Positions 36,973-61,807 of a stretch of DNA of 64,000 nt are shown here, piece after piece (position 1 is the first letter of the stretch; each line of letters opens with the position of its first letter). Where the stretch lies: contig NOWV01000127.1 in the NCBI GenBank assembly GCA_003344405.1, positions 62,001 to 126,000 of the forward strand. Direction: 5' to 3'. Source of the stretch: Trichoplax sp. H2. Taxonomy: Eukaryota. Position numbers and translations under genes: made by a program. The notes below the pieces were generated by a model. That model was not told where the DNA came from and ran no database searches. It saw nothing but the letters and a program-made list of their open reading frames with translations.

Positions 36973-37378
36973 TGCTTTAATTGGCTTGCAACGATAACGT
37001 GTTACAATGGCAACGTGATCGCCTTTTCGAGGCTTAACAGAAAACTGGATGTAGACTGCACAAGTTGATCAAGGCGGTAGCCAATGGATGCCCTGGCAAT
37101 GATCCAATTTGCTTTGACTGCTATTATTCTCAAACAGAGGATGCAAATACTCGCTTGCACAATTGGATCAGTAGAATAACGTTAATGAAACTCTGGCACT
37201 TTCATCAATGACCAATCACAACTGATAGAAGGAAAGAAATTTCTTCTTGTTAGACCATCCTAGTTCTACAAGGCTGAAAAAGGTCGTGGAGAAGAGGAAT
37301 TTGGATCATCCTTCTCTTGCTTGGCACTCTATCAGGCTGAGCAAGGAGTTGCGCCAAAAGCAAACATGTACGAGCAGG

Positions 37379-38825
37379 TACGCTACAGTACTGTACACTG
37401 TACTGTGCAGAATAAGCTGTCATCCCTAGGGTGATTTCTGTCGTACTGATCGTGTGATACGCGTTGAAAATCGATGACACATTATTGACCAGCTGGAGTA
37501 CGTACGGTACAGTACTGTACACTGTACTGTGCAGAATAAGCTGTCATCCCTAGGGTGATTTCTGTCTTATTGATCGTGTGATACACGTTGAAAACCGATG
37601 ACACGTTATTGACCAGCTGGAGTACGTACGGTACAGTACTGTACACTGTACTGTGCAGAATAAGCTGTCATCCCTAGGGTGATTTCTGTCGTACTGATCG
37701 TGTGATACGCGTTGAAAACCGATGACACGTTATTGACCAGCTGGAGTACGTACGGTACAGTACTGTACACTGTACTGTGCAGAATAAGCTGTCATCCCTA
37801 GTGTGATTTCTGTCCTACTGATCGTGTGATACGCTTTGAAAACCGATGACACGTTATTGACCAGCTCGAGTACAGTGTAAAAGGAGATTGTACTGTAAAA
37901 ATGTAGAGTACGTTGGATTGATAAAAAGCAGAATACCGTCTTGACACCTACAGTACAGTATACAGTAACATAGATCCTGGAGTCGTACTGTACTGTACAC
38001 AGCACAGTATGCTGTGGAAATCATACAGTACTGTACACTGTACAGCATAGTACTCTACTAATCTGTACTGTAGCCCGAATTTCGACTACGGTGACAATAG
38101 TTTTGCTTAAGCTGTTGCTCAATATTCACGGGCGTACATGATATTCTATTGTCTAGTGTCTACTCAACGACTCATAAACTGGTAGATTAAGTACTATAGC
38201 GTACAGTACATTGTCTTTGTTGATGGCCCGATGAATGCGAGTCATGGCTGAAATCCACTGCGGATGGCTTTCAAAATCATATCGTGCCTACAGTACGGAA
38301 TCATGATCGCATTCTGTGAAACTGTGTGTAAAATAAATGTCGTAAAAAGCTGATATACTATACTGTAATTTACGACATATGTTTTCCACGAGCCTATACC
38401 GTACTATACTGTACAGTGTACAGTACTGTGATTTTGTGCATCGGTTTGCACTCTGGAGTCTCCATACTAGACAGACTGATAGATGGACCCTAAAATCGTT
38501 AGCTTACAGTAGACCTACTGAAACAACTGNNNNNNNNNNNNNNNNNNNNGATGACACATTATTGACCAGCTGGAGTACGTACGGTACAGTACTGTACACT
38601 GTACTGTGCAGAATAAGCTGTCATCCCTAGGGTAATTTCTGTCTTACTGATCGTGTGATACGCGTTGAAAACCGATGACACGTTATTGACCAGCTGGAGG
38701 ACGTACGGTACAGTACTGTACACTGTACTGTGCAGAATAAGCTGTCATCCCTAGAGTAATTTCTATCTTACTGATCGTGTGATACGCGTTGAAAACCGAT
38801 GACACGTTATTGACCAGCTCGAGTA
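37379..38825. repeat. Near-identical 124-bp tandem repeat (4 copies 37379-37870; 2+ copies 38550-38825), each carrying a TACAGTACTGTACACTGTACTGT block
   Basis: 'gcagaataag' occurs at 37407, 37531, 37655 and 37779 (period exactly 124) and at 38608 and 38732. Confidence 0.95.
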
Positions 38826-40130
38826 CAGTGTAAAAGCAGATTGTACTGTAAAAATGTAGAGTACTGTACAGTACGTTGGATTGATAAAAAGCAGAATACC
38901 GTCTTGACACCTACTGTACAGTATACAGTAATATAGATCCTGGAGTCGTACACAGCACAGTATGCTGTGGAAATCATACAGTACTGTACACTGTACTGTA
39001 CACTGTGCAGTAATATACAGTGTACAGTGTACAGTACAGCATAGTACTCTACTAATCTGTACTGTAGCCCGAATTTCGACTACGGTGACAATAGTTTTGC
39101 TTAAGCTGTTGCTCAATATTCACGGGCGTACATGATATTCTATTGTCTAGTGTCTACTCAACGACTCATAAACTGGTAGATTAAGTACTATAGCGTACAG
39201 TACATTGTCTTTGTTGATGGCCCGATGAATGCGAGTCATGGCTGAAATCCACTGCGGATGGCTTTCAAAATCATATCGTGCCTACAGTACGGAATCATGA
39301 TCGCATTCTGTGAAACTGTGTGTAAAATAAATGTCGTAGAAAGCTGATATACTATACTGTAATTTACGACATATGTTTTCCACGAGCTTATACCGTACTA
39401 TACTGTACTGTACAGTGTACAGTACTGTGATTTGGTGCATCGGTTTGCACTCTGGAGTCTCCATACTAGACAGACTGATAGATGGACCCTAAAATCGTTA
39501 GCCTACAGTAGACCTACTGAAACAACTGTACAGCTACCTAGTAATGATAGCAATGACAGCTAAGGCTTTCAAAATCATGTCGTGCCTATAGTAAGGGAAT
39601 CATGATCGCATTGTGTAAAACTGTGTGTAAAATTAATGTCGTAGAAAGCTGGTACACTATAGTGTAATTGACACCTTAATTTACGACATCTGTTTTCCAC
39701 GGGCCTATACCGTACTATACTGTACAGTGTACAGTACTGTGATTTTGTGCATCGGTTTGCACTCTGGAGTCTCCATACTAGACAGACTGATAGATGGACC
39801 CTAAAATCGTTAGCTTACAGTAGACCTACTGAAACAACTGCACAGCTACCTAGTAATGATAGCAATGGCAGCTAAGGCTTTCAAAACCATGTCTTGCCTA
39901 TAGTAAGGGAATCATGATCGCATTGTGTAAAACTGTGTGTAAAATTAATGTCGTAGAAAGCTGATACATTATAGTGTAATTGACACCTTAATTTGCGACA
40001 TCTGTTTTCCACGGATCGATACGGTACTGTACTATACTGCGATTTCGTGACTGTGTCACGTCTTGCTAGTGGACAGACTGACATATGGACCCCACAATCG
40101 TTAGACTATAGTAAACCTAGTGAAACAACG
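38265..40130. repeat. ~305-312 bp repeat (copies at ~38265, 39260, 39565, 39877), part of a larger ~1 kb duplication 37860-38529 / 38814-39528
   Basis: 'gctttcaaaa.cat.tc.tgccta.agta.ggaatcatgatcgcatt.tgt.aaactgtgtgtaaaat' occurs four times. 'ccagctcgagtacagtgtaaaa' occurs at 37861 and 38814. Confidence 0.92.
38530..38549. other. Assembly gap (20 N)
   Basis: Run of N between two copies of the duplicated repeat block. Confidence 1.
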
Positions 40131-40646
40131 GCATACTGGAAGTAGGCGCGTCTCCATACTGGACATACTGACGAACGGACAGGAGGAAGATTGGCTTAAA
40201 GTAGACCTACTGAAACATTAGTGCAGCTCGCTAGCAACGGTATACCGAAAAGACAAGCTCAAGACCAAGTGGACGCAAGCCAATCCATGCAGCCAATTCA
40301 AATTGACAGTTATTCTTCTCGCCAAGCTGAGGATAAAAACACTTTCTCGATCTTGGCCTTGATTGCAATGATGGAAAATCATCCAATCAACTAATGTACA
40401 GTTGTTTTCCATCATGCCCTTAGCGGAGAGACGATTGAACGATCTTGTAGGTGGTAGAAAAGCCAAGAAATTGGTCTCCGTTAATTGAATTATTGATCGA
40501 TCGAAAACAATTTAGTGGCATCGTCCTCAACATCGTTGCTGACAAGTACAACGCCAAAGCAATTTGAAATTATTGATTTCATCGACATTCGTTTCCATTT
40601 CTTCTATAATCGATACACAGATAGTTTCCAATGTAACATAATTATC

Positions 40647-43600
40647 ATGGAAGATTCAAGTATCCATGCTGATGGCTTTGATGCCAATCATTACGATGAT
40701 GATGATCAAGTACGAAGTTTACAAGAAAGAGTCAAGCAATTAGAATTGCAAAATAAGATCTTACAACAACAAAATCAATTGGATGAAGAACACAATAAAT
40801 TCAATTTAAACGATGTTCAATTAATCGATTTGAAACAGCCAACCATCCATGATGATAACGAAGACAGTTGGTGAGGATAACTTATAAATAGTGAATATAT
40901 CAACATTCACTTTCATCCATCATACAGTGCATCACTTGGAAGCGATCATATGTTGACCTAAAAGTGAATCACCATCTTGAGCTGATTGTGTTGATACTCT
41001 TTCGTCATATGTTAGGAGATAGCTAATTTTCTCAATAGGATCTTCCAGTAAATCGTCAATTTTACTCCATTGACGATCTATACTTGTACATAGATTGAAA
41101 TCATTCAAAATCGCAATCGAGTTGACTTTCTATGCATACGGCATTAGACGGTATTCGACGTACTTAAATTTGATATGTAATGGAAACGACTGCAGCTTGT
41201 CAATGTTCGTATACTTTACTAGAACTGATTTAAGGTGTACTTGAATTGTTTTAGTTGTTGATCCTCTTCCCTTCCCATCTCCCTACAAATTGTTTCTGCA
41301 TACTGTAGACGCAGTGTTTATTTAGATGACTACGCTGAATGGCTATTCTCAATCTTTGATATGACAGTATAAAAGTCTTATGAGTAACTTAATAATAATT
41401 ATCATTTGATGATCAATCATGGCGCCGTCCAGTCTGCTACAATGACTACAGTAAACTACACTTTCCATTAAACCACGACACCTAGATGATCCCCGTTCAA
41501 GTCCGTCGTAATCCCGATTTTATCCCTTACATGGACATTTTCTCTATGTGCCTTAATCTTAATTATGTTGAGGAGTCATGCCCTGCCAACTGCCACTATT
41601 AAAACAGCAGCAGCTTAAAAATATTTACACTTGGCGCTATCCTACCGTGCTAGTCTGCAAATCATCATGCTGATGATAGGATGGATGTTCGAATTATACA
41701 GTAATTGAAGATTAAGGAGGAAATGCATGATACACGTGAAATGGTAGGCATAGCTATCCCATGCTAGCCAAAATGATTAGACAATACATTATCCTAAATT
41801 GAATTAATGAGTCATTCTATCCACTAAACAATCAATCAATGATGCATTTGTATTAAAGTCTTCTCGTCTTTTGACCGCTTATATTGGATTGTTTTAGCTT
41901 AATCTTCCTTCAAGTGCTCCAATAACAAACTCAATTATAATTAACGACATTGATTGCGTATGTGTCTGCGATATTACCATCTTTAATTTAGCCTATTTAG
42001 TTATAATCGGTAATCGTGATCCGTTTTTTGAAAAAGAGGATTAAATAGAAGAAAGCTCAACACTACATGTACAGTATAATTCAATTGAAGCAAATATGAA
42101 GTGTCGAAAGCTCTGAAATCAACAAGGCGCATTAGCTACCTTTCATTACTTTAAGTCATAGCAAATAACGAATAACTTTAACAAATCAATGTTAATATGA
42201 TCTAGCATCAGTAATAATTATATAATCAATCTATTACTTTTTGCAGCCGCAAATCTTGCATTATTCCAATCCTTTTTAATAGTCTGTAAAAAATTATTTA
42301 GTTCTTCCAATACTTTTTAAATAATTAGTAAAGGACGTCATGAACGATTGGATTAATACTCAAATCATCCATTTTGTATGCGCGTATAAATATACAAAGA
42401 GCAAACGTTTATTAGCACCTTGATGGAGTATTAACATGGATTTTACCATGGCAATGGTAACCTATTCTTTCAATAGGCTTTATGAATCACCAAGAGCTCA
42501 TCCGACACCAGAACAAAAACTACAGAGCCCATGGAAATGGATGGAAGTAGGCTCTTATGATGAACTACAAGAAATTCGCGGTAATCTTGCTTCAAGATTT
42601 AACCAAGCTAGCAATGATCACCCAGGTTTGTAACTTGTTTATGAATTCAACGCTATGCTCAATTTCAAGTAAAATGCAAAGTGCAATAATGGATAGATAA
42701 ACATGAGCATAGCTGAATTAATTAATATTTTTCATAATTTAAATGAATAGCCAGCATTGCGCGTCTACCAAGTCAATGCAATTTTCAACCTACAGTACAA
42801 TATTATAGCGTGGATTATATTCATGACTGTCTCAATTACTTTAGATCACTTAAATACATCTGGCAGTCTATCATATGCGAATCGACGCTATTCGGATCTT
42901 AGTCAGGTTTCGCGATCAACTGCACGCTTATCAAAGAAAGCGTTTACTTCGCCTCCTTCTATCAAAATTCATGGCAAAGGTAATCGCCAGGAATTACAAC
43001 AGGATGTAAATAATAATCATACAGATTCCAATTTATTACATAAAAGTGCATCAAACATTTCCAATGGTGATGGCGGCTCGAAAATCAAACTACTCTCAGA
43101 CACTAATTTACGACGACACTCTTTAAACACAAACAATAATCGTTCAATCCCTAGCAGCGGAAGCTCTAATCGCTCCATCGCAGGAAGTGGATTATCGCCA
43201 AGAGGTAGTATAGAGAACTTAAACGATGGTGGATCACGACTTGGTTTAAGAAGACCTAATCTAACGACGAAGCAGACTCTACAAGTTGGTACTCCAGTTG
43301 CACAGAGTCGTCAATTTAGCCGATCTACTAATGATGGTAAGATATTAGTGCCAGTGAGATTGCTTTGCATACGTTCATGTTATTTATCGTTTCTATTAAC
43401 AATAACACAGTGATACAACCTGCCTTCTGTATCTGGTAAAGTAGGTAGTCTATACTGTCATTAAATTTCATGTTGTGTAAATCATTATTGATATACACGA
43501 TCTTAACAGTTTCAGGTGATGCTAACAATAATAATTCAGCAATGATCAGATTTGGTACCTTCAGACGTTCGTCAGATGTACCACCCCGTACCCTGAATGC

Positions 43601-43896
43601 TTCTTATACTAATCTTCATAAAGCTGATTCTACATCACTTTTAGCGCCAAGCCCCATTACAAAATCAGCCATTGCTAGATCATCCCCCTCCATCCCCCGT
43701 GGTAAATCCGGAATTACACCCCCACGGTATGTAGCAATAGGTATTTTCGCGGCCGTTGTATTATCATTATGGTTAGAGTTAAACATCTATTAACTATAAT
43801 AATCAATTATTTTTATGAAGTCGTCAAGGAATTCCCCGGACAGTCCAACAAACACCCAAAGCTCAAGAGCAAGAAGACGATTTCGAATATTATTAA
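40647..43896 (+). CDS. SLAIN: SLAIN motif-containing microtubule plus-end tracking protein
   Basis: Exon 1 encodes MEDSS..DQVRSLQERVKQLELQNKIL..LNDVQLID..NEDSW and splices to LYESPRAHPTPEQKLQSPWKW, resembling SLAIN2 (EVRKLQELVKKLEKQNEQL..ESWLYSSPKKKLTP). Ser/Arg-rich exons carry SxIP-like motifs. The last exon (43821-43896) ends EQEDDFEYY*. Confidence 0.85.
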
Positions 43897-45542
43897 TAAA
43901 TACCTTTTACTACTGCGATATCCTACTCTACCTTTGTGAAAATCGCAAACAAACAGCATTACTCATATCATGGAATAAATAGCTTTAATGGTTCATCGCT
44001 CAAATTCGATAAATTGGAACCGATCTTACCATTTTACTTAGCTATTACGGAAAGAGCTGATGATTTTTCAAATTATTGAAAAATAACGTTACATTTCAAC
44101 GGATTGTCACAATAACTGTAATAATTCAAAGCTAAATTGATACAATAATGTCAGATTGATTATATTATCTGATAAATCTTGCCTCGTTATTGAAATGTAT
44201 TTATTTATGAATTTATTAAATGTACAGATGAGTAGCTTTCATATCAATTCGATCAGATGGTTTACCATGTTTTAGAATAGAGGTTACAATGCATAATTAA
44301 TATGTCCCTATTTGCCTGTGTTGCTGGCGGGTTTTGCAAGCATTAGAATTAACAATGGTTATTGTATGTTATATAGTGATGTCAATATCGCATTGAAAAC
44401 CAATATAGAAATTAATTGGCGACTTTCGTCTAAAGTTTTTATTGTTGCTCAAATTTATGAAATTTATGGAACGTTAATTCCAGTTTTACGACATTTATGT
44501 AATTATGATACGGTAAACTACATTGTTGTTATTACTGTACTTAAATGTTTATTACCCTTGCTTGTAAATGAAGTTTTTATTGCTGCACTCTTTACCTAGA
44601 TTTAATCCTTTAAAAACTGTCAAGTTGAGTATTTACTACTGTATTACGGCCAAAGAAAGCAATAAGCAAAAATATTTCGATTTCACTCTTTTGTTTTTCG
44701 ACTAAGTTATTCTACATGGAATTCTATTGTACTCGTACATCCAGATTAAGTAAACGGCTTCTTTATCTGTATATCGCTGTCTTATAGGGGTGCAATTCAT
44801 CAATTAAACATTCATAATTTAGAAATCGCTCAAATACATTTATTTAAAAATATGTTGTACCTTATTTACAGTTAGTTCTACAGCATTATAATTTAGAATT
44901 GCTACAATTTAAAGAATCGCAAATCAATCTATTTATTGCATTACTACGTTCCAGCTGGTATCATACATTGCGTTTTTGTTTTACGTTGAGGTGCGTTATA
45001 TATATATACAGGATAGCCCATACAATAGTAAAATGGCTGGCTAGCGCTTCATTCTGGCATTACTATTTACCGATGGATGGTAACATGAATAAAAATAGTT
45101 GTCAAACACTAACTACTGTCGATAATTGATTTTTCGTTAATGACAGTCAGGAATATTAAATCGATCGTCATGATACAGATAGTTATTAACGTGATTGCTT
45201 AATTAATAAAAAACAAACATTTGATAGGAGGATTATAATTAATTATAAACAGAGTCAAGAAAGTTGAAATGAATCAATCTAAAGTTGCATATTTACATTC
45301 ACAGTCACTTAAAATACCAACATCTATATTGAATTGAACTCATAGAGGTAAGAAGACTGTATGATTGAGCTAACTAATTTAATCGAATTATATATATTAC
45401 AATATAATAATATCGTTTTTCTAAATCCAGGTATAAAGTGTCTTTAGTGTAGGTGTAACAGTAAGACCAACGCAGTGATATTAATAAGACTTTAGATACA
45501 ATCAGTAAACGACAGAAGAGGGCATGTCATACGCATTTCCTT

Positions 45543-48500: not shown

Positions 48501-51346
48501 AGCAGCAATTAAGATTATTCTAAACCTTGCTTAGGCGGTACCCATTATTGAATAAGGTCTATTTATATTGATGAAAATTTTACCCGAAGTTGTGATATTA
48601 AGCTTTTATAATCTTCTATTTCTTGCACTAATTTACGATGAAATGCTTCATCTTTATCCGATCTGGCAAGATTTTCCTTTAGTTTAGCTTCTCTTACGTC
48701 GAGATTACGCGATTTTTGTATAAATTGTTCTTGTGTTTCGAGTTTAATTCTGTTTCAAATTAAAAATTACCACAAGTGTCCGGTTAGTAGAGTTAATTAC
48801 ACAGTATGAAAGATTATCACTTCTTTGATAGTAACGTAAGACAGACAGTAGAATCATGCCTGGTAATATTGTCTTCCAGATCCCGCTGATATCTTTGCTC
48901 TAAATTACTGATTGAAGTTTCCTTCATTCGGATGCGCTCTTCGGCAGCTCGGGCTTTCTCACTTTCTAATTTTTGAGATCTGAATAGGCAAAACATGTTG
49001 TTAATTTTTACAAATCATTTCGTACCATGTTACAGCAACACTTTTAGGCATAGCCTATTATCTTATGTTTTATTTCCATATCTGAGTTACGTAGCTTACT
49101 GTTCGTTAAGCTCAAAACAACGCTTCAATTCCAGTTCTTTTGATCGAACCATTTCTAGTTGTTCAAGTATTGATTGGCGCTGCAAATGCAATTGGGCTTC
49201 CTTTTCTAACTCTTGATTACGAAGGTGTTGCATCGTATCTTCTTCTTTCCTTCGTAGCGCTTCCTTTTTTTGATAATAGTCTTGCTCTAGCTCATTCCTT
49301 ATGGTCTGCAATTCTTGCTGGTATTTGGTTCGTTCTTCCAGGCGCATCTTAGTAAGGGTTACATTTTCGAATCGTTCCATCTACAGTAGGATAATTATTT
49401 ATTGGTATTAGATGTTGTTCTATAGTCATGACCGATATATATTTATAAAAGTAAGACATACTTCAACTTTTGCCTGCGCGATACATCTTGTTTCTATTTC
49501 TTTTTCCATAGCAATTAATTTATCTTCCACAGAATCGTGATTCTTGTCACGGGTATGATGGCTGTCCATTACGGTTTGATCTAAAATTTGAAGTCTTTGG
49601 TCTAAATTTTAATAAACAGTAATAAGCAACAAATGTAAGCTTAAAATGGGTTGCTTAACATTAAAGTGATTCGGTTGTAATTACTTAGATGTTCTTGAGT
49701 GAGTATCGGCTGTTGATCAGTTTGACAGCTATTATCCAATCGAGGAATAGGTTTGACTTGATTTTGGTTCAAGAAGTAATCTAACAATACTATTAAAAGA
49801 CTTTGTTCCGCGGTGGTTGTTAAAGCAATGGCTTTACGATAGAACGGATCATTTGGTTGAAACTTCATAAAATCGATGATATCGGGTATGTTGTATACCT
49901 ACATGAGTGTTGTATGAAATTTATAAGATTTTCAATAGCCAATTTTTGATCCTTCTATTAACTTTCAGTAATTGAAACGCTATATCAGACAATTACTCTA
50001 TGCAATCGCATATGATTGTAGGTAGAACGAGTGCATTAGGTAGGAAAATTTCCACCTTAATTACTGGCTTTTATATGATAAATCATGTCAATAGATCTGA
50101 TTAAGCTTCTATTGTTAATATTACGTGACTTTTCTTATTGCAGTAATCCATTACCTTATCTTCTGATAAATTGCATTCTGGCAGGTAGACCGATAAAGCG
50201 TAATCGTATCGATACGTCTTTAAATGGTTGCAAATGATGCTATTGCCCACATCCAAATTTAATTGATTGATAGTTTGTTTACTATGATTGATGTTGGATG
50301 TTAATACGCCTTGACGTTGCTGAAGTTCGTCAACCATTTTCTTGCGCAATTGAGACTGGTAAAGAAAACATTTGAGAGTCAATTTTCATATTTAAGGTCG
50401 GTCATTTTATGATCTATTCACCGGCTAAAACTAGAATATACGTTGTAGTAAGTATGTCGCTGCAAAGCTAAACTATTGTCTAATCTACAAAACCTTTCCT
50501 AGTCATGGTAGAGATGAGATGAATGGTAGCATTTTTGTTGGATTGATTCATCCATTGGATCATTTGGATATTATTATTGTACTATACTCACTCACTGAGG
50601 GATATGGATACTGTACAGTAGAGAGATTGATCCATGGCATATGAGTTATTATCGACTGGAATGGGATGCACTAAGATAGTAAAGGGAGTTGAGCCTGTGA
50701 AGGAAGTTTTACTGTACAGTGTCGATTGTACAATCTATACGCGTCTAGCAGGATACATTGAATAACTTGGATAGTTAGGGTTGAGCGCATTCTAACAGTA
50801 GGTTATGACTAATCCTGGAGTATTTCATTTATTTGTTGTAGCTGCATTGCTTTGTGTTGCCGTATCGTATCCAAATGATGTTCTAGGAGAGTGAAAAGAA
50901 GGTGAAGGACTTTATGACGTTCCCTTGTTCAATGATGGGACTTTAGTTGAATTCTCCAAACTGTTTACAATGTAGAGTACAGTAAATGAGTTGTATTGGT
51001 TTGATGTTCAAAGTAGTATTCCAATTGCACTAGGTAATCAATGGAATAAGTGAGCTACTGTACTTTTGAATGACGATTGAAATAGTCTGTGATGGTTTCT
51101 ACAGATGTACTGTTGGTCGATGGGTTCTCCTTTTGTTATATCGAGGCCATTTAAGTTGTGGTACTCCATCTCATCGCTAAACTACGCTATAGTGCCTGCC
51201 TATGGGAATGACGATGGTAAAGTCCAGGATGAAAACATTGCTTACGTTACCTTCAAAGTCGTCAATATCCCACGCTGGCGAAAGTTATGAAATAACTTGA
51301 GTTTCAATTCTTCTTCCGATAGAGTTGGTTCTTCCAAGTCCACCAT
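45543..51346 (-). CDS. OFD1: Oral-facial-digital syndrome 1 centriolar/basal-body protein (LisH + coiled coils)
   Basis: Exon 1 encodes MVDLEEPTLSEEELKLKLFHNFRQRGILTTLK. Exon 2 encodes SQLRKKMVDEL..GNSIICNHLKTYRYDYALSVYLPECNL (LisH). Multiple coiled-coil exons follow (46031-49380), including DPVMLHYMELVK. The C-terminus is LSDDEAFDW* at 45543. Confidence 0.92.
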
Positions 51347-54316
51347 GATTTAAGCTTGTAATGGCGATGACTAATCTCAGTAGAATGAGTGCAATAAGTC
51401 AAGACAGAATGGTTGAAATCAATCCAAGATTGAACACGATCACCAAGGTGATAATCAAGCTTGCGGTTGTGCAACTTGGTGGTACTGGTACCTGTCCCTT
51501 TCCGTCATGGATCGCTGCTGACTGCTGAAGATTTTCCACTAGGATCACGTCGATCCACGTCTAGTTGGGTCTAGTAATCAATGGATTCCTTCTTGTCAAT
51601 GTATCAATCTCCATAGACGTCGATGGCTGACTGACTATTTCTCTATTTGGTCAGCAGCTTGGAGAATAATTTGAAATTTGAATTTTGAGCTGCAGCAAAT
51701 TGGCTGGAGGCGAGGCTACAGTACTGTACTACAGTATAGCGCTGGAATGGAGAGAATGGAAATTGCTGTTTTCTACTGTGGTACTGAGTGCGCCAACGGC
51801 AGGTCTGTTAACGTATCGCGCGGGAAAATACTGTAGTAGAAGTGGGGTGGACTACAGTACGTTGTACTGTAGTTCCCACCCTGACGGAGGATCCGTACGT
51901 CCGCACTGCCATGTCGCGAGCGCCATTCCACAGTACTGTACACTACAGTACATTGTACAGTGGTGTACCTAGTGTACAGTACAGTGTACAGTACTGTCCA
52001 ATGGTGTGCATCGAATTGCTGTCCATCCACCTTCCATTTTCTCTATAGTAAAAGCTGTTCAAATTGAAACTTCTTCCAACGGGAACCCTGCAGATTGAAT
52101 CGTCCAAACATGACTAAGTCTGAGTGTACTCTACCATAGAGTTGACTTGATGGCGTGTAGTGTACGTCCGTATCGTCAATCTGTCATGTACAGTACAGTG
52201 CAGTACTAGACCGTGTACAGTACAATGTACTGTACATCCTTCATCCAAACATGACTGGGTGTACTGTACAGTGTACAGTGTACAGTACTGTACCATAGAG
52301 TTGACTTGATGGAGGGTAGTGTACAACTGTACAGTACGTACTGTACTGTACGCCCGTATCGTCGATCTATCATCTACAGTGCAGTTCTGGACCGTCTACA
52401 CTGTCCATCCCCTCTACACTCTACTGTATTTTCCCTATAGTAAAAGCTGTTCAAATTGAAATTGCTTCCAATGGGAACCCTGCAGATCCACTCTTCCAAA
52501 CATGACTGAGTGTACTCTACCATAAAGTTGAAAGGATGGAGGGTAGTGTACGTCCGTATCGTCAATCTGTCATCTACAGTGCATTACTAGATCAGTACTG
52601 TACTGTACAGTGATGTACTGTACATCCCTTCATCCAAACATGACTGCGTGTACAGTACTGTACAGTACCATAGACTTGACTTGATGGAGGGTAGTGTACT
52701 GTACGTACGTCCGTATCGTCGATCTGTCATCTACAGTGCAGTTCTGGACCGTCTACAGTACACTGTCCATCCCCTCTACAGTACACTCTACTGTATTTTC
52801 CCTACAGTACTGTATAGTAAAAGCTGTTCAAATTGAAACTGCTTCCAATGGGAACCCTGCCGATCCTATCCTCCAAACATGACTGAGTGTACAGTACTGT
52901 ACCATACACTTCCCTCTATGGAGTGGAGAATCCATCCGTATTGTCCATCTGTCACCCACAGTGCCGTCCTCGACGGTGTACAGTACAGTGTACAGTCGGC
53001 CTATGTTAGTACTGTAGCTAGTAGGCAAAAACAACGGTTCACAGTCCCAGTATAGCAGTCAACACCAACGGCCAAGTAAGTCATCAAGTCTGCAAGAAAC
53101 AGCTTGCCATCGTCAACAACATCTCTTGCTCTCCATACTTTGTTAACTCTATCCATGGAATCTTAGTGGTATGTAGAGAATGTATGCCTGCTTGCAAAGG
53201 AATGATGTACGATGAATCATGACTAGACTACCTCACTTTTTTGTTGCACTATACTATCATGCAATGCCGCTATCCTAGACAGTTAGTTGTCGTCATCATG
53301 CATCAGCGTCTTTTCGACTTGTTGTATTTGAAATGACGCTGGAGCTAGTGCATGCTTTCCAATGGCATGCCCATGACTCTACTACAACTTTCAAATAAAA
53401 CTAATAAGTTGATGATGGTACGCAGTGATAGAATAAATAGTCAGTCAGATGTACAATATTAGCATGCTTGACTATCGGTCAAGTGGAAGGAAAGTCATCA
53501 AAAACTGACATTGCTTTATGCCTCCTCGATTGCCCAATGCTATTCGTTGTGCATGCAATCAAGAAAGGATCCATGTCCTAATGCAATGGATTAGGAGAAC
53601 GTGACACTAGGCTTCAATTGCTGTAGATAGAGTGGAAAGTATTAGCTTTCAATCGCTAGGATCCGATGTCATAGACGGCTACTCGAAAATTGAGAAAATT
53701 TTCGGAAACTATACTCACAACGAAATCTTACTAGGATCTCATCGCTACAAGCAAACGGGCAATCTTAGCAGTATTGATCCTAACGTCCTCTTAGGATAAC
53801 GGCGTACCACTACAGGACATTACAAGTGGCATACGTATGCCAGCGAAATAGACGCACACTTGTGATGTTGCAATCATTAAAAGATAAATCTTTTAGACAT
53901 GGACTGCTTAGAACTATTCTTATCAAACAATTGTGCTAAGAGATGAAATGCCATGTTGAAATATTGTCTCCCCTTCTAGCTTAATACTGTACTTGCTTGC
54001 TACCGTATTGGATAGATCGCTTTTCCACTGTACAACGATAAATCATCAACGACGTGTATACTGTACGGAGACGTACAAATAACGACGCTAGTTTTGTATG
54101 TAGACGTAGTGAGAATGGCGTTAAAGGATAAAATTGAACATGGTGAAATGTTGTCCACTTTACAGCTTGCTTTCTATTCTATTCGATATATTACTCTTCC
54201 ACAACGAAAATCATAAATTCTATCTAGTAATAGAAGAATCCATCAACAACGCTGATTAGTCCAATTGTTGAACGCTAAGTCAACACTTTATATTTTCTCT
54301 TGCAGAGCACCAAATA
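51347..54316. promoter_or_regulatory. Divergent OFD1/NUP54 promoter interval
   Basis: Lies between the ATG of OFD1 (-, 51346) and the ATG of NUP54 (+, 54317). An acceptor ttgcag at 54300-54305 suggests a 5'-UTR intron in NUP54. Confidence 0.6.
51717..52996. repeat. Compound tandem repeat (~120-150 bp subunits, ~380-400 bp higher-order unit) riddled with TA-CAG-TA/TA-CTG-TA blocks
   Basis: 'tccaaacatgact' occurs at ~52103, 52243, 52495, 52633 and 52872. 'tagtaaaagctgttcaaattgaaa' occurs at ~52046, 52438 and 52815. Confidence 0.92.
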
Positions 54317-57292
54317 ATGTTTTCACAATCTCTTAGTGGAAATAATACTGGTACATTCAAATTTGGTGCTGGTGGCAACACTGCTACCACACAAGCCAAT
54401 CCGTTAGGTGGTGGTGGTGGCGGCGGCTTTTCCTTCGGAGCATCAAATACCCAAAACGCTGCTAATAAAAGCTTTACCGGATTTGGCAACACAACCACCC
54501 AAGCTGGTAATTTCACAGGTTTGGGTGCCACCGCAGCAGCGTCCGGTGGTTTTGGTGGATTTGGCACCAATACAACCTCACAAGCAGCCGGATTTGCAGG
54601 ATTTGGCAAGACAGCAACCACACAATCAACAGGATTTGGTGGACTCGGTACAAATACTTCTACACCATCGACAGGCTTTGGTAATTTCGGTACAAATACG
54701 TCCACGCAATCGGCTGGCTTTGGAGGATTCGGTACCAATCCAACGACGCAATCTGCAGGATTTAGCACTTTCGGTAAGCCAACGGCCACGCAATCCGCTG
54801 CCTTTGGGGGATTTGGTAATACATCTACTTCACAACCAGCTGGATTTGGTGGCTTTGGTACTACATCAGCGCAACCCACTGGCTTCGGTGGATTCAATAT
54901 GTCAACAACATCCAAACCAACTTTCGGCACAGCAACCACTCAATCGAGCGGATTTGGTAGTTTTGGTACAACAGCACCTCAAGCAATTGGTTTCGGTGGA
55001 TTTGGTAGCCTTGGAGGCAGTTCTGCCTTACAAACAGGATTTGGACCATCGACCGCGACTACCTCTCTATTCGGTAAGCCGTCTGGTAATATAAGTGGAT
55101 TTGGAGCTGGAACCAGTGCGCTTAGCTTTGGCGGTCAAACTACTGCAAGTAATTTACTTGGTGGCCAAGGATTAGCTCCTGGTGTTGGTCAACAAGGTTA
55201 GTTTTCACTGAGCTTATTTCACATTTTAATTATCTTGAAAGACGGTAATTTATTCTGTGCAGTTTAGGAAATAAGTAGTAAGAGTGCGTCTGAATTCATT
55301 ATTGATCATCTATTTGTCAATAGCTGTTCAGGGTGGTGTTCCTGAGAATCTTCTTTTAGTTGCTAGTTGTACCTGTAATATTTTTGGTGATGAAAGGGAT
55401 CTAACACTAGCAAAGTTTAATCAACTTCAAGCTATCTGGGGGCTCGGAAAAGGCTTTTATAATAGACACGCGCCTCCAATTGAGTACCAACGATCGAATC
55501 CTTTGTGTATATTTAAGGTTAGAATCGCTGTGACAATTATATAACTATCAAATACAGAATGTTTTATCAAGATCCTCTTCAGGGTAATTCATAATTTCAA
55601 TGATCCATATTGTTCTTCTTAGACCGTATGCTTTAGTAGCCTGCCTGCAGTAAAAGAATCTGATGGACTTGTTGTTCTTAAACTCAATAAGAAAGAAGCA
55701 GATGTAAATGCTCAAAAACAAAACATTTTAGATGCACTTTATACTGCTTTAGGAAAAAGACCGTTATTATCGGTGCGATTTGTTGATGTTAGAGCTATTG
55801 GCGACAATGCGTAAGTAGATGGTATATTGACCCTATTTCGCGTAGTAGATTGACTTGCTACCAGTGGACTTCATGTTGTAGACTAGTTTAAATTGAAGGG
55901 GATTTTATTTTTAGATCCGAAATGACATTTTATATTGAAGAAAGAGCGCTCAATGGGGTTCGAAAGCGTTACCTTGCTCGTGAGATTATTGATCATTTGT
56001 CTAGAAATAATTTTTCTGTAAGTTTCATCAATATAAACTTGGTCTACGCGTATACGAGATGTACTTTTCATAGATGGTAGCAATATTGGCAAATGATAAT
56101 GATCTAGGTAATATAGAATGCATATTTTTCTGAATCATAGAGCCAAATAGCCAGCTTAGGAATAGTGGATATTTATCCAAAACCGATCATTACTCCACAA
56201 CAAGTTAGAGATGTCCTAGAAAATCCTCCGTCAGGTTCTAATATCGGTATAGATTTCAATTTTTTAATTACGGCAATTGCTAACATTCTAGTATTGTGTA
56301 GGTATTAATCCAGCTGTGTGGAAACAAGCTATTGAGAATAATCCTGATTCCGCAAAGTTAGTCACTTAACTCTTTGGCGCATTAGTTAAGGAGAAAGATT
56401 GACATTATGATACAAGGCATTCTTGTTAAAAGTATTTACCCATTGTTTCCTACGCTATTCTAGTTTAATTCCTATACCAGTAGTTGGATTTGAAGAATTA
56501 TGTGCTAGATTTAAGGCTCAACAAGAAGAAACAAAACGCCAAAATTCTGCTTGTGAAGTAAGACCTATTATTGTGGTAAAATAATTCAATCCTAATAATA
56601 TGCTTATTTTATCCGAAATATTTTGACAGCAAATATCGGATGAGTTGGTTAAATTACAGCAAAAGCAAGCTGTAGTTAGTGCTAGAGTAAATCAGTATCG
56701 ACGTAAACACATGGAACTATGCCATCGTGTGTTAAAGATCATTAGTAAACAAGAGTTAATTAATAAGAGTGGATTTTCGTTAACTGAAGAAGAAGATCAA
56801 TTCCGATTTAGACTTCAGGGAATGGAAACTGATTTCAATGCCCCAAATCAGTTTAAGGTTATTTAGCATTTTATTATATCCATGCAAATTAACTGCCTAG
56901 CTGTATATGGGATACACCAAGCGAGTGATAAAAAGGAATTGATTTTTATCCTTATTGATTGCAGAACCGGCTGTATGAGTTAATGTCTCAAATCAGTATG
57001 AAGAACACAACTTCATCAGGACCACAAAATTTAGAATTTAAGGCAGATGAAGAGACATTGCATACCATTAAAAGAGTTAGTTATACTCGTACACTATTTT
57101 TGATAAAAATAAGATTAAAATAGATTATAATAAGGTTTTTATTAATTGATTTTGTACACGTATTTCCATTATACATAGTATCTAACAAACCAACAGAAAG
57201 CTATAACTGCCTTAGTTGAAACATTTAAAGAAGATCTAGAGGACATTAACGTTATTGAACAAGGCTGGTCAGGTTCTTCAAATAAAAGCTGA
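54317..57292 (+). CDS. NUP54: Nucleoporin Nup54 (FG-repeat N-terminus, alpha/beta and helical domains)
   Basis: An FG-repeat exon (54317-55197) is followed by IFGDERDLTLAKFNQLQAIWGLGKGFY..NPLCIFK, NPPSGINPAVWKQAIENNPDSAKLIPIPVVGFEEL and YRRKHMELCHRVLKII..NAPNQFK. Stop TGA at 57290-57292. Confidence 0.95.
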
Positions 57293-57584
57293 GATAGCAC
57301 TCTGTTAAATTCAAAGTCAAGTCGAAGCTACTGTTGAAAGATTGCAGATTCCTAAAGATATTGTTATTACTTATACTGCAATTTCAGCAATGAATTAATT
57401 CCTTCATTAATTATTGGAAGCCATTTTTGTACAGATACTGATTCAAATTACGACATCAGTATATCATAAAATATCGAATTCAAATAACTTATCATTTTTT
57501 TATTTGGATACAATCATGGTCTATAACGTACGTTTTTTTAATTGGAATATTATATGAATCTTGCGACATATAGACACCAATTGA

Positions 57585-59085
57585 TCAATGATTATAATTA
57601 GCAGCTTTATTTGAAATATCACTGTGACGTCTAACTTTATTACTATGAGATGTATGGTAATGTTCCTTTGCTTTATTTTGGGCGTGATCCCTGCTCTTGG
57701 AACGTTTGTCTGTAGTAGTAACCGACTTTTCGTCTAAACGACTCTTCTTGACGCAGTCTTTAGCACTAGCAAGTTTGGGCAACTCTATAAAGTAAAAATG
57801 TCACATCAAACGTTACTGTAGCATTTATTCAGTCGCTTCTTTAATAAGTCGATTATTGTAAAGCAAAATAAAGTTTTCCATTTTATTTACTATGTATATT
57901 GTAATGCAATATTTGTTATCCGTCCTATCAAGGCAGCGATAAATAACGGAGGCTCTGTACTACTACTGCTTTATATCGAATTTTATAAGTAACATTATTG
58001 TTCGTTGCATTTTGTTTATACTTATTGTAATAAGGTTACGAAATTATTTATCATTGCTACAATAATAGTAGGAACTACCTATATCGTTCTCAATTTATCT
58101 GATAGTCGCTAAGAAATCATTTATCACTCAGGTTACCTTTCCTTTTGTTTGATCGAACAGCATTTGTCATCATATTTTTCAAATAAACCTTATTAGCACC
58201 CGGTAATTTTTTCCTATGTGATGCGGTAGATAAATGTTACACATAAGCAATACACTACGTCAATTTATTATAATTATTATCGCTTTCAGACTACGTTTAA
58301 CTATTTCTACTTGTGTACAGTGGTGATGTATCATAGAGCACACTACTCATTCATTTTAGTTTAATCAGAAATGCGATTTAGCTGCAATATACTACATTTA
58401 TTATCGCTTTTCAGACAACGCTTAACTATTTTTGCTTGTGTACAGTGGTAATGTATCATACATAGAGTACACTACTCATTCTTTCTACTTCAATCAGGAA
58501 TGCAATTTAGCTGCATTTACATTGCAGTCAATTTATCCATACTTTTACATTAACAAGATGGATAAGGTATTTAATGTATCCTTTTGAGTAGAGATTGAAA
58601 GGAATTACCCAGTTTACTTACCATCCAATGACTCCTATTCTTTCAGAGCGATCTTTTCCTCTCTTTGCTTCTTTTAAGATTTCTTCAGCGGCTAACCTGG
58701 AAAATAGGATGAAGTATGATAGAATTAGTACCTTATTACTGCCATCCTTAGAATTAAGTCTCTCTTTCCCTCTCTCTCTCAATCATCGTTCAGTATCGTA
58801 CCATTCCATACAGTAGTGAACTCGTGATTGTATCAGCCAACATGATCGCAATATAACTACAGGTATTGCACACGGTACCTCGATACCTCGCAATTGGAAG
58901 CTATCGAGAGCAACTACTGCAATGTGATATCAATTTCAAAATAAATTTATTGACTAGCTAACAGTACTTGAATCTATTCTTTACTATCTTCATACGAAGT
59001 GTATATGATACTACATAGATCACCTTTCAAGTTCGTCATCATCAAAAGTAGGAAGAGATTTGCTGTCCTTTTTATCCATTGACAT
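57585..59085 (-). CDS. POLR1D: POLR1D isoform-2-like small basic protein (not the RPAC2 polymerase subunit), 4 exons
   Basis: In-phase exons 59024-59085, 58622-58696, 58137-58213 and 57585-57784 give MSMDKKDSKSLPTFDDDELER LAAEEILKEAKRGKDRSERIGVIGW KKLPGANKVYLKNMMTN... This matches recalled human POLR1D isoform 2 (MEEDQELERKAIEELLKEAKRGKTRAETMGPMGWMKCPLASTNKRFLINTIKN). Confidence 0.85.
58255..58515. repeat. ~130 bp direct duplication in an intron
   Basis: 'ttattatcgctttcagac.acg.ttaactattt....ttgtgtacagtggt.atgtatcata..gag.acactactcatt...aatcag.aatgc.atttagctgca' occurs twice. Confidence 0.9.
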
Positions 59086-60578
59086 TAATGCTGATGTGAA
59101 GAGTATATTTACAAGTATTCTATGTATTCCAATTTCGACTGGTGGTTGAAGATCTTCCAACTGTACACCACATCCAGTATGATTGGTTGCTTGAATATCC
59201 GATGATCTACTGATCAGCCAATATTACTCCAAAGACCAAAGCAAAACTCCTACTTTGTCCAAATTGATCATTCCACCCATAGGATTGATTGACTTCAATA
59301 GATGCCAATTATGATGGCTAAGAAAAGCTCAACTTACTGACTGTGAAGATTCTATCTATTTTTATACTTGATGAATTAGCCAAATGGAGACCGCAAGCAA
59401 TCGGTTATGCAAGCCTGATCGTTGTCGTCGTTACCAGTCTACTGGTAACGACGACACTGGACCGTTAACAGACGTTTGGGTATTTTACCCATGACATCAT
59501 TGACTGTATAGCCTTCCGTCTGTCTGTCGTTGTGTCCTAGACTACTCCAAGGCGAGTTGTTTTGAGGAAGTGCATCCATGGACATTGGATAGGACTTTCA
59601 ATAAGGCTGGAGAAAACAACTCTTATAACGTGGTAATATTGTCTACAGTAGCTTTTTAAGACTTGAAAATGAGTCAGTAATAGAGCATGGACTCCTCGTC
59701 TATGCATGGACTTGTGTCTACCTAGTGAAACTACTTAAAAGGTCCCTGATATAACAATATTCAACAATAGATTAAAGATCAATTTCAAGTATCTTGCACA
59801 GTGTCCAGTACAGTGCAGGACAAGACTGTAATGTACATTCTAGTCTGCACTATTTTGCAATTATCTTTTAGTACCCTATTGCTGAAAGTGCTTACTGAAG
59901 CTGTAAAGCAGTTGCAGCAATAGATACTAAACGATAATTGCAAAATGCCAGAGTGTACAATCCACATAGACGACTAGTCCATGTTGACTGAGGCTTGTAT
60001 GCGAAAACACTTTAAAGTCCCTGATGGAACAATTCAACTACAACTTTAACCATAATACAATATCTCCTATAGTACTGGATCAAAACTGTACAAGTATTTC
60101 AGGACAACTTTAAGCCCTTCAACTAGGAAAGGATCTGCAAGCGATCGGAGTGGAAGCGACTAGCTTACCATGGACTTGCAAGTTTTGCAAGTCGCTGCAG
60201 ACCTTGAGCACGCCGGATCGTCTTGCATCCATACTACTTGCTATACAGTGTACAATACGGTAGCTAGAATAGAGTAGAACAAGTATGACAAGGTTCTATT
60301 GTCTATCGTTTCGTGGGACACATTCTACAGTACAAGATCGTACAGTACAAGACTGTACGATCTAGAGTGATTTGACTGAGAGTTTGGGAAATGAGCGTCG
60401 ATGGTACTGTAAAATAGCGAGCAGAAATAATGTCGCAATTCTCGACCTAGAGATGGTATGATAACCTAAGCAATTCTAGTAAATACATGGTTATAAGGTG
60501 ACATTCATTTTTCTACAAATTGATGGATATGCTAGCACCAAATGCGACGACGCAAAGACAAATCCATCGACTGCAATC
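59086..60578. promoter_or_regulatory. Divergent POLR1D-like/FIP1L1 promoter interval
   Basis: Lies between the ATG at 59085 (-) and the ATG at 60579 (+). Confidence 0.6.
59423..59456. other. Perfect 16-bp inverted repeat with 2-nt spacer
   Basis: tgtcgtcgttaccagt-ct-actggtaacgacgaca. Confidence 0.95.

Positions 60579-61764: not shown

Positions 61765-61807
<43 letters not shown>

What the first reader, a model, noticed from the sequence alone, without database searches (positions are those of the whole stretch)
36973..60578. Scar motifs concentrate at head-to-head housekeeping promoters
Seen: three consecutive divergent pairs (MDC1/SLAIN, OFD1/NUP54, POLR1D-like/FIP1L1). Dense TACWGTA stacks occupy the middle of the first two intervals and a weaker cluster the third (e.g. 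tacagtacaagatcgtacagtacaagactgtac at ~60327-60358). Isolated doublets occur in promoter-proximal first introns (36277-36295, 50609-50620, 50710-50721). By eye the motif is only sporadic in exons and in the 12-31 kb desert. Inference: a transposase, possibly domesticated or tethered, targets open bidirectional promoters, and the palindromic TACAGTACTGTA arrays may have been co-opted as protein-binding or chromatin-architecture sites. I recall reports of transposon-associated motifs at placozoan promoter loop anchors but cannot verify here whether this is the same motif.
Basis: inference. Interest (0 to 1): 0.8.

Follow-up and report, generated by a model that had tools for sequence, protein, structure and literature searches.

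The report
Placozoan promoter-spacer GTAC motif arrays
In this stretch of the Trichoplax genome, the untranscribed DNA between back-to-back housekeeping genes is packed with short palindromic ACAGT/ACTGT stacks; this is real, but it looks like a local example of the promoter and chromatin-loop motif already reported for placozoans.

Summary
The window is Trichoplax adhaerens. TACWGTA occurs 139 times against 10.6 expected, and none of 100 shuffles reached 139. 85 of the 139 sites lie in two blocks, 37.4-40.0 kb and 51.7-53.0 kb. RNA contigs show these blocks fill the spacers between divergent transcripts: MDC1-like/gene D and OFD1-like/NUP54. A third divergent spacer is weakly enriched, 4 sites against 0.41 expected. 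About half of the first block is tandem or segmental copies beside an assembly gap. After collapsing copies, 26 and 36 distinct sites remain.

The unit is ACWGT in either orientation, which places GTAC every 5 or 7 nt. Stacks differ by 5-nt steps between copies and between strains. The same words recur at many other places in a DNA run, with unrelated flanks. I found no transposon hallmark.

A 2025 preprint names a repeating ACAGT motif as a predictor of Trichoplax Micro-C maps. I read these as multivalent protein-binding or architectural arrays that evolve like microsatellites. This is largely known, so interest is modest. The Mutator origin remains open.

The parts
32162..36972 (-). MDC1-like gene: FHA exon 35361-35714, tandem-BRCT exon 32162-32794, first coding ATG at 36972-36970.
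   Evidence: Pfam FHA and BRCT_2/RTT107_BRCT_5. 100% identity to TRIADDRAFT_30248. Sequence read.
36279..36292 (.). Isolated motif doublet in the promoter-proximal intron of the MDC1-like gene.
   Evidence: It lies between the ATG exon and the FHA exon.
37378..40037 (.). Array 1. ACWGT/GTAC stacks fill the spacer between the MDC1-like gene and gene D. Layout: 124-nt tandem repeat at 37378-37873 and 38550-38823; roughly 1-kb duplicated segment at 37874-38529 and 38824-39520; run of N at 38530-38549; 312-nt tandem repeat at 39260-40037; decayed copies to about 40242.
   Evidence: 49 TACWGTA sites against 2.26 expected, of which 26 have distinct flanks. Repeat structure. RNA contig depth is low in bins 37634-38967 and 39635-40301.
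40302..40869 (+). ATG at 40647. Donor at 40869, spliced to 42476.
   Evidence: RNA contig joints with GT..AG ends in X16 and X14, and RNA depth 50-119 in bin 40302-40968. Sequence read.
50609..50722 (.). Two palindromic doublets (50609-50620 and 50710-50722) in the 5' intron of the OFD1-like gene.
   Evidence: They lie between the LisH exon 50101-50385 and the 5' exon 51251-51678.
51251..51678 (-). 5' exon of the OFD1-like gene. The RNA contig stops 39 nt before the first stack.
   Evidence: X19 record 15. LisH_2 in the downstream exon. Minus-strand CT..AC introns further 3'.
51717..53016 (.). Array 2. ACWGT/GTAC stacks lie in diverged repeat units of roughly 160-390 nt between the 5' ends of the OFD1-like gene and NUP54.
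   Evidence: 36 TACWGTA sites against 1.15 expected, all 36 with distinct flanks. Units. 5-nt indels at stacks between units. A 5-nt deletion at 52978 in DNA run X2.
53151..53168 (+). 3' end of the NUP54 non-coding first exon. Intron 53169-54305, exon 2 from 54306, ATG at 54317.
   Evidence: The X14 loose end before 54305 matches 53151-53167, and the loose end behind 53168 matches exon 2. Sequence read. Pfam Nup54.
59231..60480 (.). Third divergent spacer, weakly enriched. Stack remnants at 59644, 60326-60358 and 60405-60411.
   Evidence: 4 sites against 0.41 expected. Sequence read. The gene on the minus side rests on reading frames only.
60579..63709 (+). FIP1-like gene. ATG at 60579. Fip1 motif exons at 62146-62289 and 62414-62620.
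   Evidence: Pfam Fip1, E = 1.9e-16. Sequence read.

Best explanation
What it is. These are cis-regulatory or architectural arrays of the placozoan housekeeping-promoter type. The element is a 5-nt unit, ACWGT, used in both orientations. It is strung into stacks of 12-28 nt, which puts the palindrome GTAC every 5 nt, or every 7 nt in the direct GTACAGT form. Dozens of stacks fill the non-transcribed spacer between two divergent transcription start regions, and a thin halo extends into the first introns.

How it most likely works (inferred). Each GTAC-W-GTAC palindrome is a site for a sequence-specific, probably dimeric, DNA-binding protein. Many sites side by side make a multivalent platform. 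That platform would keep the spacer open, insulate the two genes, and let such promoters stick together into the promoter hubs seen by Micro-C.

How it evolves (shown in part). Stacks gain and lose 5-nt units by slippage. Whole segments of 124-390 nt that carry stacks are duplicated in tandem, probably by unequal exchange between stacks. The arrays can therefore grow in place without transposition.
For: Shown here:
- Strong enrichment confined to the divergent spacers: 49, 36 and 4 sites against 2.26, 1.15 and 0.41 expected.
- The enrichment survives collapsing copies: 26 and 36 distinct sites.
- Spliced RNA contigs bracket both arrays.
- Halo near the spacers: 14 sites in the 7.2 kb next to them against 9 in the other 19.4 kb of gene bodies (binomial p = 7e-4).
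- Grammar. GTAC-to-GTAC spacing is 5 nt 57 times, 7 nt 19 times and 10 nt 17 times. GTACWGTAC occurs 51 times against 6 for GTACSGTAC. At 5-nt spacing there are 30 palindromic and 15 direct junctions. At 7-nt spacing 18 of 20 are the direct form.
- The two arrays share only the motif. Their repeat units are unrelated, so the motif was enriched independently at two loci.
- All top-enriched 6-mers and 8-mers belong to this grammar.
- The same words occur widely in the genome. In DNA run X2 the summed word depth is 2041 and 2748 in the two stack-rich bins, against about 33 beside them. At each of six stack edges, 23-45 contigs run on into unrelated flanks (agreement 0.38-0.42).
- 5-nt indels at stacks between repeat units and a 5-nt deletion at 52978 in X2.

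From papers:
- Kim et al. 2025 (PMC12221973; passages): a motif at loop anchors overlapping GP1 housekeeping promoters in two placozoans.
- Chimaera preprint (section 60): a repeating ACAGT motif found de novo for Trichoplax and confirmed by in-silico insertion to change predicted maps.
Against: - No binding, accessibility or contact data could be laid on this window. The functional step is inference.
- Neither paper gives the letters of the Kim et al. motif in its text. The preprint says the motif that belongs to the transposable element of Kim et al. is the ACGG repeat, not ACAGT. ACGG/CCGT is only 2.7 times denser in these spacers. The arrays here may therefore not be the published loop-anchor motif itself.
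Such DNA can therefore exist without this function.
- The sample is one window with three divergent spacers. The third spacer is weak although its genes look equally housekeeping.
- Part of array 1 may be an assembly artefact around the run of N.
Confidence: 0.55

Rival explanations
1. Transposon origin. The stacks are terminal inverted repeats, or excision scars, of a Mutator-type DNA transposon that integrates preferentially into open promoters of highly expressed genes. Any architectural role is secondary or absent.
For: - Kim et al. 2025 report that GP1 promoters often contain elements annotated as Mutator whose inverted repeats carry the loop-anchor motif, and they name targeted integration as one option.
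- Inside the arrays, inverted pairs of stacks with arms up to 37 nt exist.
- The stack words are dispersed over the genome.
Against: - No inverted-repeat pair carrying the motif lies outside the arrays. The 10 pairs found there are weak (71-81% complementary) and do not carry it.
- In a simple scan for 10-nt inverted ends with flanking direct repeats, all 27 pairs with a direct repeat of 8 nt or more lay in the arrays, and their 'target duplications' were motif letters. None of the 819 pairs elsewhere had one longer than 6 nt. None had 9 nt, the usual Mutator length.
- None of the 10 array reading frames scanned, of 15, has a transposase domain.
- The non-motif parts of the units are specific to each locus, and flanks at other genomic copies disagree right at the stack edge.
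- The 124-nt unit is a head-to-tail tandem repeat, not an insertion.
- The published Mutator calls come from EDTA, a pipeline that finds such elements by structure. Palindromic stacks could satisfy it by themselves. This last point is my inference and was not tested.
Confidence: 0.2
2. Neutral by-product. The arrays are an unstable pentanucleotide microsatellite or minisatellite that expands where selection is lax and DNA is open. The spacer tolerates them and they do nothing.
For: - 5-nt indels between units and between strains.
- Local tandem duplication of 124-390-nt units.
- Runs of the same pentanucleotide occur in 113 or more metagenome contigs.
Against: - Ordinary runs are pure. 566 of the 599 matching 19-mers in the metagenome loci are one-orientation repeats. 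Here palindromic junctions outnumber direct ones, 30 to 15, and stacks are short and numerous rather than a few long ones.
- The 20 kb with no gene evidence and the tail-to-tail DNA carry about 1 site per kb against 16 per kb in divergent spacers. Lax constraint alone does not predict that placement.
- A model trained on Micro-C found the motif independently.
Confidence: 0.15
3. Intrinsic DNA-structure element. The half-turn (5-nt) phasing of GTAC and the dense palindromes exclude or position nucleosomes, or extrude cruciforms. This sets up a nucleosome-free, insulating spacer without a dedicated binding protein.
For: - Strict 5/7/10-nt phasing of GTAC and many perfect palindromes of 10-14 nt.
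- Repeat-unit lengths of 124, about 160-230 and 312 nt are of nucleosome scale. This is an observation only.
Against: - No structural or nucleosome data are available here.
- The high sequence specificity argues for base-specific reading rather than shape. Single substitutions at motif positions 2 and 6 (A and T) are nearly absent from the arrays, 2-4 sites each against 85. Position 3 is looser, 16 with G and 14 with T.
Confidence: 0.1

Closest known systems
Placozoan loop-anchor / GP1-promoter motif (Kim et al. 2025, Nature, PMC12221973)
   Same: Same species. The motif sits at promoters of highly expressed housekeeping genes and is dispersed over thousands of sites.
   Different: The motif's letters are only in figures and supplements that I could not see. 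A later preprint describes the transposon-borne motif as an ACGG repeat, which is not what dominates here. I found no Mutator hallmark in this window.
Repeating ACAGT motif found de novo by the Chimaera network on Trichoplax Micro-C (preprint 10.1101/2024.11.14.623548)
   Same: Same letters and same species. The preprint reports that it changes predicted contact maps when inserted in silico.
   Different: The preprint gives one sentence and a figure. It says nothing about promoters, gene orientation, grammar or origin. The two-orientation grammar, the placement between start sites and the microsatellite-like turnover are described here only, for one window.
Clustered short insulator or housekeeping-promoter motifs of Drosophila (BEAF-32, M1BP, DREF sites); recalled knowledge
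   Same: Clusters of a short motif lie between head-to-head housekeeping genes and coincide with domain boundaries. The preprint notes that the fly M1BP motif has a strong effect in the Trichoplax model because it contains a 4-nt pattern tied to insulation there.
   Different: The sequences and, presumably, the proteins are unrelated. The fly sites are not 5-nt-phased palindromic stacks or slippage-prone arrays.
Pentanucleotide microsatellites
   Same: A 5-nt unit and length changes in 5-nt steps. Pure runs of the same unit exist in other organisms' DNA.
   Different: Here the unit appears in both orientations, in many short stacks confined to promoter spacers.

Membership tests
Mutator-like transposon (element or its inverted-repeat remnant) | Terminal inverted repeats bounding a discrete insert | tested here: inconclusive
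   Inverted pairs exist only inside the arrays and consist of the palindromic stacks themselves. None carrying the motif lies elsewhere in the window.
Mutator-like transposon (element or its inverted-repeat remnant) | Target-site duplication of 9-11 nt that is not part of the element | tested here: not met
   Of 1628 pairs with 10-nt inverted ends, none had a 9-nt flanking repeat. 23 had 8 nt and 4 had 10 nt. All of these lie in the arrays and all are made of motif letters. This was my own simple scan, not a published caller.
Mutator-like transposon (element or its inverted-repeat remnant) | MULE transposase gene (autonomous copies only) | tested here: not met
   None of the 10 array reading frames scanned, of 15 that are 70 aa or longer, has a transposase domain. 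None of the 9 frames scanned in 13.6-21.4 kb has one. Non-autonomous copies would lack it anyway.
Mutator-like transposon (element or its inverted-repeat remnant) | Copies elsewhere share sequence beyond the ends | tested here: not met
   At six stack edges, 23-45 DNA contigs run on into flanks with 0.38-0.42 agreement. Bins holding non-stack parts of the units show only 3-6 times the flanking depth, in line with the local copy number.
Placozoan GP1 promoter / loop-anchor motif (Kim et al. 2025) | Sequence matches the published logo | not testable with these tools
   The logo is in Fig. 3d and the supplements. No letters appear in the text, and supplements are closed.
Placozoan GP1 promoter / loop-anchor motif (Kim et al. 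2025) | Sits at promoters of expressed housekeeping genes | tested here: met
   The arrays are bracketed by spliced RNA contigs of three RNA runs. Flanking genes are MDC1-like, OFD1-like and NUP54; FIP1 flanks the third, weaker spacer, which one search did not cover.
Placozoan GP1 promoter / loop-anchor motif (Kim et al. 2025) | ATAC and H3K4me3 peaks and a Micro-C loop anchor at the site | not testable with these tools
   Only assembled contigs of public runs could be laid, and these carry no signal level.
Pentanucleotide microsatellite | Head-to-tail repeats of one unit | tested here: not met
   There are 30 palindromic against 15 direct junctions at 5-nt spacing. Only 1 match to a four-GTAC 19-mer occurs in the window, against pure runs in the metagenome loci.
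Pentanucleotide microsatellite | Length variation in steps of the unit | tested here: met
   5-nt indels at stacks between repeat units. A 5-nt deletion at 52978 in DNA run X2.

The most novel reading that the evidence does not exclude
The arrays did not come from a transposon. They are a self-expanding, two-orientation pentanucleotide binding platform that arises and grows in place at housekeeping promoters, by 5-nt slippage and by unequal exchange between stacks. The published 'Mutator inverted repeat' origin of the placozoan loop-anchor motif would then be a side effect of structure-based transposon calling on palindromic stacks. If so, placozoan promoter hubs would be wired by microsatellite-like evolution of binding sites rather than by transposition.
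Probability: 0.3. Interest if true: 0.55.

Novelty: already known. Interest (0 to 1): 0.3.

Why it matters
Placozoans have thousands of promoter-promoter loops but no CTCF-type explanation, and the factor that reads the anchor motif is unknown (Kim et al. 2025). This window gives a clean base-level example of what such a promoter spacer looks like:
- a 5-nt unit in both orientations;
- GTAC phased at half a helical turn;
- dozens of sites exactly between two start regions;
- turnover in 5-nt steps.

That grammar suggests a dimeric reader of GTAC-W-GTAC and gives concrete oligonucleotides for a pull-down. It also raises a checkable doubt about the transposon origin. The phenomenon itself is already in print, so the finding confirms and refines rather than discovers.

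Tried and rejected
- **Whole genome.** None is held for this window, so the genome-wide test by intergenic orientation class could not be run.
- **Earlier notes of this scan.** Four look-ups gave nothing relevant.
- **Motif letters in print.** Searches for the strings GTACAGTAC, GTACTGTAC and two 12-mers returned 375 papers. None of the 25 listed concerned placozoans.
- **Other papers.** Further searches on Trichoplax or placozoan with Mutator, promoter hubs, bidirectional promoters or H3K4me3 gave only Kim et al. 2025 and the Chimaera preprint as relevant.
- **Non-coding RNA genes in the spacers.** Rfam at gathering threshold and ARAGORN found none in the window.
- **A second shared motif in the arrays.** k-mer contrasts returned only the GTAC/ACWGT grammar. 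ACGG/CCGT is only 2.7 times enriched.
- **Metagenome scan for a four-GTAC 19-mer**. This shows only that such runs are not unique to placozoans.
- **Names 'SLAIN' and 'POLR1D-like'.** Pfam and PDB sequence searches on single exons gave nothing. I ran no further search on them.
- **RNA contig depth inside the arrays** (bins 38968-39634 and 51641-52974). It is raised by motif words shared with other loci and says nothing about transcription of the arrays.
- **Whether the roughly 1-kb duplicate across the run of N is real.** This could not be settled from contigs.
- **Excision-scar model.** The idea is that 5-nt target duplications are left behind by repeated insertion and excision. The 5-nt differences between units are not exact duplications of the neighbouring unit, and they fit deletion between TACA or GTAC microhomologies. 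I therefore rank this model low, but it is not excluded.

Full report
**Where the window comes from.** The tandem-BRCT exon at 32162-32794 (minus strand) is 100% identical to a Trichoplax adhaerens protein, TRIADDRAFT_30248. The window is therefore placozoan nuclear DNA, with one assembly gap at 38530-38549. No whole genome is held for it.

- TACWGTA occurs 139 times. Dinucleotide-preserving shuffles give 10.56 (sd 3.59), and none of 100 reaches 139.
- The per-kb profile shows two blocks: 48 sites in 37-40 kb and 36 in 51-53 kb.
- Each segment was tested against a first-order Markov expectation drawn from that segment.

| Segment | Sites observed | Expected |
|---|---|---|
| Spacer 37371-40300 | 49 | 2.26 |
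| Spacer 51681-53030 | 36 | 1.15 |
| Spacer 59231-60480 | 4 | 0.41 |
| 11651-31900 (no gene evidence) | 22 | 2.37 |

- Gene bodies hold 1-7 sites each.
- The third spacer has Poisson p = 8.5e-4.
- Divergent spacers together carry 16.1 sites per kb, against 0.98 per kb in tail-to-tail DNA plus DNA with no gene evidence.

**Are these head-to-head promoters?** For the first two intervals, yes. I laid contigs of three RNA runs and one DNA run on 36300-56299.
- Plus-strand GT..AG introns at 40869>42476, 42623>42843, 43335>43509 and 43725>43820 define gene D. RNA depth is 50-119 in bin 40302-40968 and 0.6-1.5 in the bin before it.
- Minus-strand CT..AC introns between 45.5 and 48.3 kb define the OFD1-like gene. 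An RNA contig covers 51251-51678 and stops 39 nt before the first stack.
- A spliced NUP54 contig carries, ahead of 54305, letters that match 53151-53167. NUP54 therefore has a non-coding first exon ending at 53168, about 150 nt beyond the last stack.
- On the MDC1-like side the ATG is at 36972-36970, and RNA contigs cover the next bin.
- Contigs cannot fix transcription starts, so 'fills the spacer' is accurate to about 100-300 nt.
- The third interval lies outside the stretch I could lay. Its minus-side gene rests on reading frames only.

**Gene names.** Pfam confirms FHA plus BRCT, Nup54, LisH_2 and Fip1. 'SLAIN' and 'POLR1D-like' were not confirmed.

**How much is duplication?**
- Array 1 is built from a 124-nt tandem repeat (4.0 plus 2.2 copies), a roughly 1-kb segment present twice at 99% identity on either side of the run of N, and a 312-nt tandem repeat of 2.5 copies. 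Only 26 of its 49 sites have distinct flanks.
- Array 2 is made of older, diverged units of about 160-390 nt. All 36 of its sites have distinct flanks.
- The two arrays share nothing but the motif, so the enrichment arose at least twice.
- Whether the 1-kb duplicate is real or an assembly artefact cannot be told from contigs.

**Anatomy of the motif.**
- The unit is ACWGT. ACAGT and ACTGT are reverse complements, so this is one 5-nt word in either orientation.
- GTAC-to-GTAC distances of 30 nt or less are 5 nt (57 times), 7 nt (19) and 10 nt (17), with 1-7 cases at each of the other distances that occur.
- GTACWGTAC occurs 51 times and GTACSGTAC 6 times.
- At 5-nt spacing there are 19 ACAGT|ACTGT and 11 ACTGT|ACAGT palindromic junctions, against 15 direct ones.
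- At 7-nt spacing 18 of 20 are the direct GTACAGT form.
- 29 of the 34 stacks of two or more units lie in the two arrays, which make up 6.7% of the window.
- Every top-enriched 6-mer and 8-mer in the spacers belongs to this grammar.
- Outside the arrays, sites in gene bodies concentrate within 1.2 kb of the spacers (14 against 9; p = 7e-4).

**Dynamics.**
- Aligning the three large units of array 2 shows that they differ at the stacks by 5-nt steps (twice TACAG, once GTACA) and once by 14 nt (two 7-nt units). The sequence between stacks is conserved.
- The 5-nt differences are not exact copies of the neighbouring unit. They fit loss between 4-nt microhomologies.
- DNA run X2 carries a 5-nt deletion at 52978 inside a stack.
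- The stacks therefore behave like a pentanucleotide microsatellite.

**Spread in the genome.**
- In DNA run X2 the summed word depth is about 33 along the genes. It is 2041 in bin 38968-39634 and 2748 in bin 51641-52307.
- 2034 contigs were laid for this run, against 71-106 for the RNA runs.
- At each of six stack edges, 23-45 contigs continue into flanks that agree only 0.38-0.42 with each other.
- The tool warns that summed depth is not a copy number. The safe statement is that the stack words recur at many other places with unrelated neighbours, while the non-stack parts of the units do not.

**Transposon hallmarks.**
- No motif-bearing inverted repeat lies outside the arrays.
- In a simple scan for 10-nt inverted ends with flanking direct repeats, all 27 cases with a repeat of 8 nt or more were inside the arrays. 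Their 'target duplications' were motif letters, and none had 9 nt.
- None of the 10 array reading frames scanned (of 15) has a transposase domain, and none of the 9 frames scanned in the 12-22 kb region has one.
- No RNA gene hides in the spacers.

**What is in print.**
- Kim et al. 2025 (PMC12221973; I read passages and figure legends, not figures or supplements) found thousands of promoter-promoter loops in T. adhaerens and Cladtertia.
- They describe a class of highly expressed housekeeping genes (GP1) whose promoters are loop anchors, an enriched motif at those anchors, and frequent 'Mutator' annotations whose inverted repeats contain the motif.
- They propose either a protein that came to read the motif or targeted integration. 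Their transposon calls come from EDTA v2.1.0. The motif's letters are not in the text.
- The Chimaera preprint (10.1101/2024.11.14.623548; section 60 read in full, other passages by search) trained a network on that Micro-C map.
- It reports 'repeating motifs ACGG and ACAGT' for Trichoplax, and says the former belongs to the transposable element of Kim et al. It says inserted motifs change the predicted maps.
- ACAGT repeats are thus already tied to Trichoplax chromatin architecture, in one sentence and a figure.
- Whether they are the Kim et al. motif is unresolved. In this window ACGG/CCGT is only 2.7 times enriched in the spacers, against 9-10 times for ACWGT and GTAC.

**Reading.** I take the arrays to be multivalent binding platforms of the placozoan housekeeping-promoter system that evolve in place like microsatellites (confidence 0.55). 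The rivals are:
- transposon remnants (0.2);
- a neutral unstable repeat (0.15);
- a purely structural DNA element (0.1).

The binding, openness and looping steps are inferred. The placement, grammar, turnover and dispersal are shown.

**A side check.** A scan of metagenome contigs found 113 or more loci with four phased GTAC units. 566 of the 599 matching 19-mers were pure one-orientation runs, and only 22 of the 113 loci had any mixed 19-mer. The letters are not unique to placozoans, but the short mixed-orientation stacks at promoters are unlike ordinary runs.

**Verdict.** The novelty lies only in detail (grammar, exact placement, 5-nt turnover) and in a testable doubt about the Mutator origin.

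Noticed in passing
window 38530-38549 with 37378-38529 and 38550-39520: A 20-nt run of N separates two near-identical stretches of about 1 kb (300-nt blocks at 97-99% identity). This may be a true tandem duplication or an assembly artefact in a repeat.
   Followed up: partly
window 11651-31900: About 20 kb without gene evidence. None of the 9 reading frames scanned has a Pfam match below 0.001. It holds tandem repeats of 83, 91 and 148 nt and has higher G+C at 12-22 kb. TACWGTA is still about 9 times expectation, with small groups at 27.6-28.3 and 29.2-31.7 kb.
   Followed up: partly
window 37081-37216 and 40280-40297: CCAAT boxes sit just outside both ends of array 1 (37081, 37104, 37212; 40280, 40293). 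The spacers themselves are poorer in CCAAT than the rest of the window, 1.6 against 3.0 per kb. Ordinary promoter elements seem to lie at the array edges.
   Followed up: no
window 52978: DNA run X2 lacks 5 nt inside a stack. This is a unit-length difference between the reference and another sample.
   Followed up: partly
window 61501-61814: The FIP1-like exon contains a 12/24/36-nt coding tandem repeat (an ENIEENME-type run) followed by 20 GAT codons (poly-Asp).
   Followed up: no
window 54272-55201: The NUP54 exon 2 is an FG-repeat region with a 42-nt tandem periodicity.
   Followed up: no
L038:2670-2900 and L025:200-260: Two metagenome contigs carry phased GTAC arrays in which the fifth base varies among A, T, C and G. 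ACGGT-type and ACAGT-type units are intermixed. This suggests the 'ACGG' and 'ACAGT' repeats named for Trichoplax could be variants of one GTAC-N family. The organisms are unknown.
   Followed up: no
window 12014-12025: A lone perfect 12-nt palindrome of the motif lies in the 5' part of the RhoGAP gene region, either upstream or in an early intron. There was no RNA evidence to place it.
   Followed up: no
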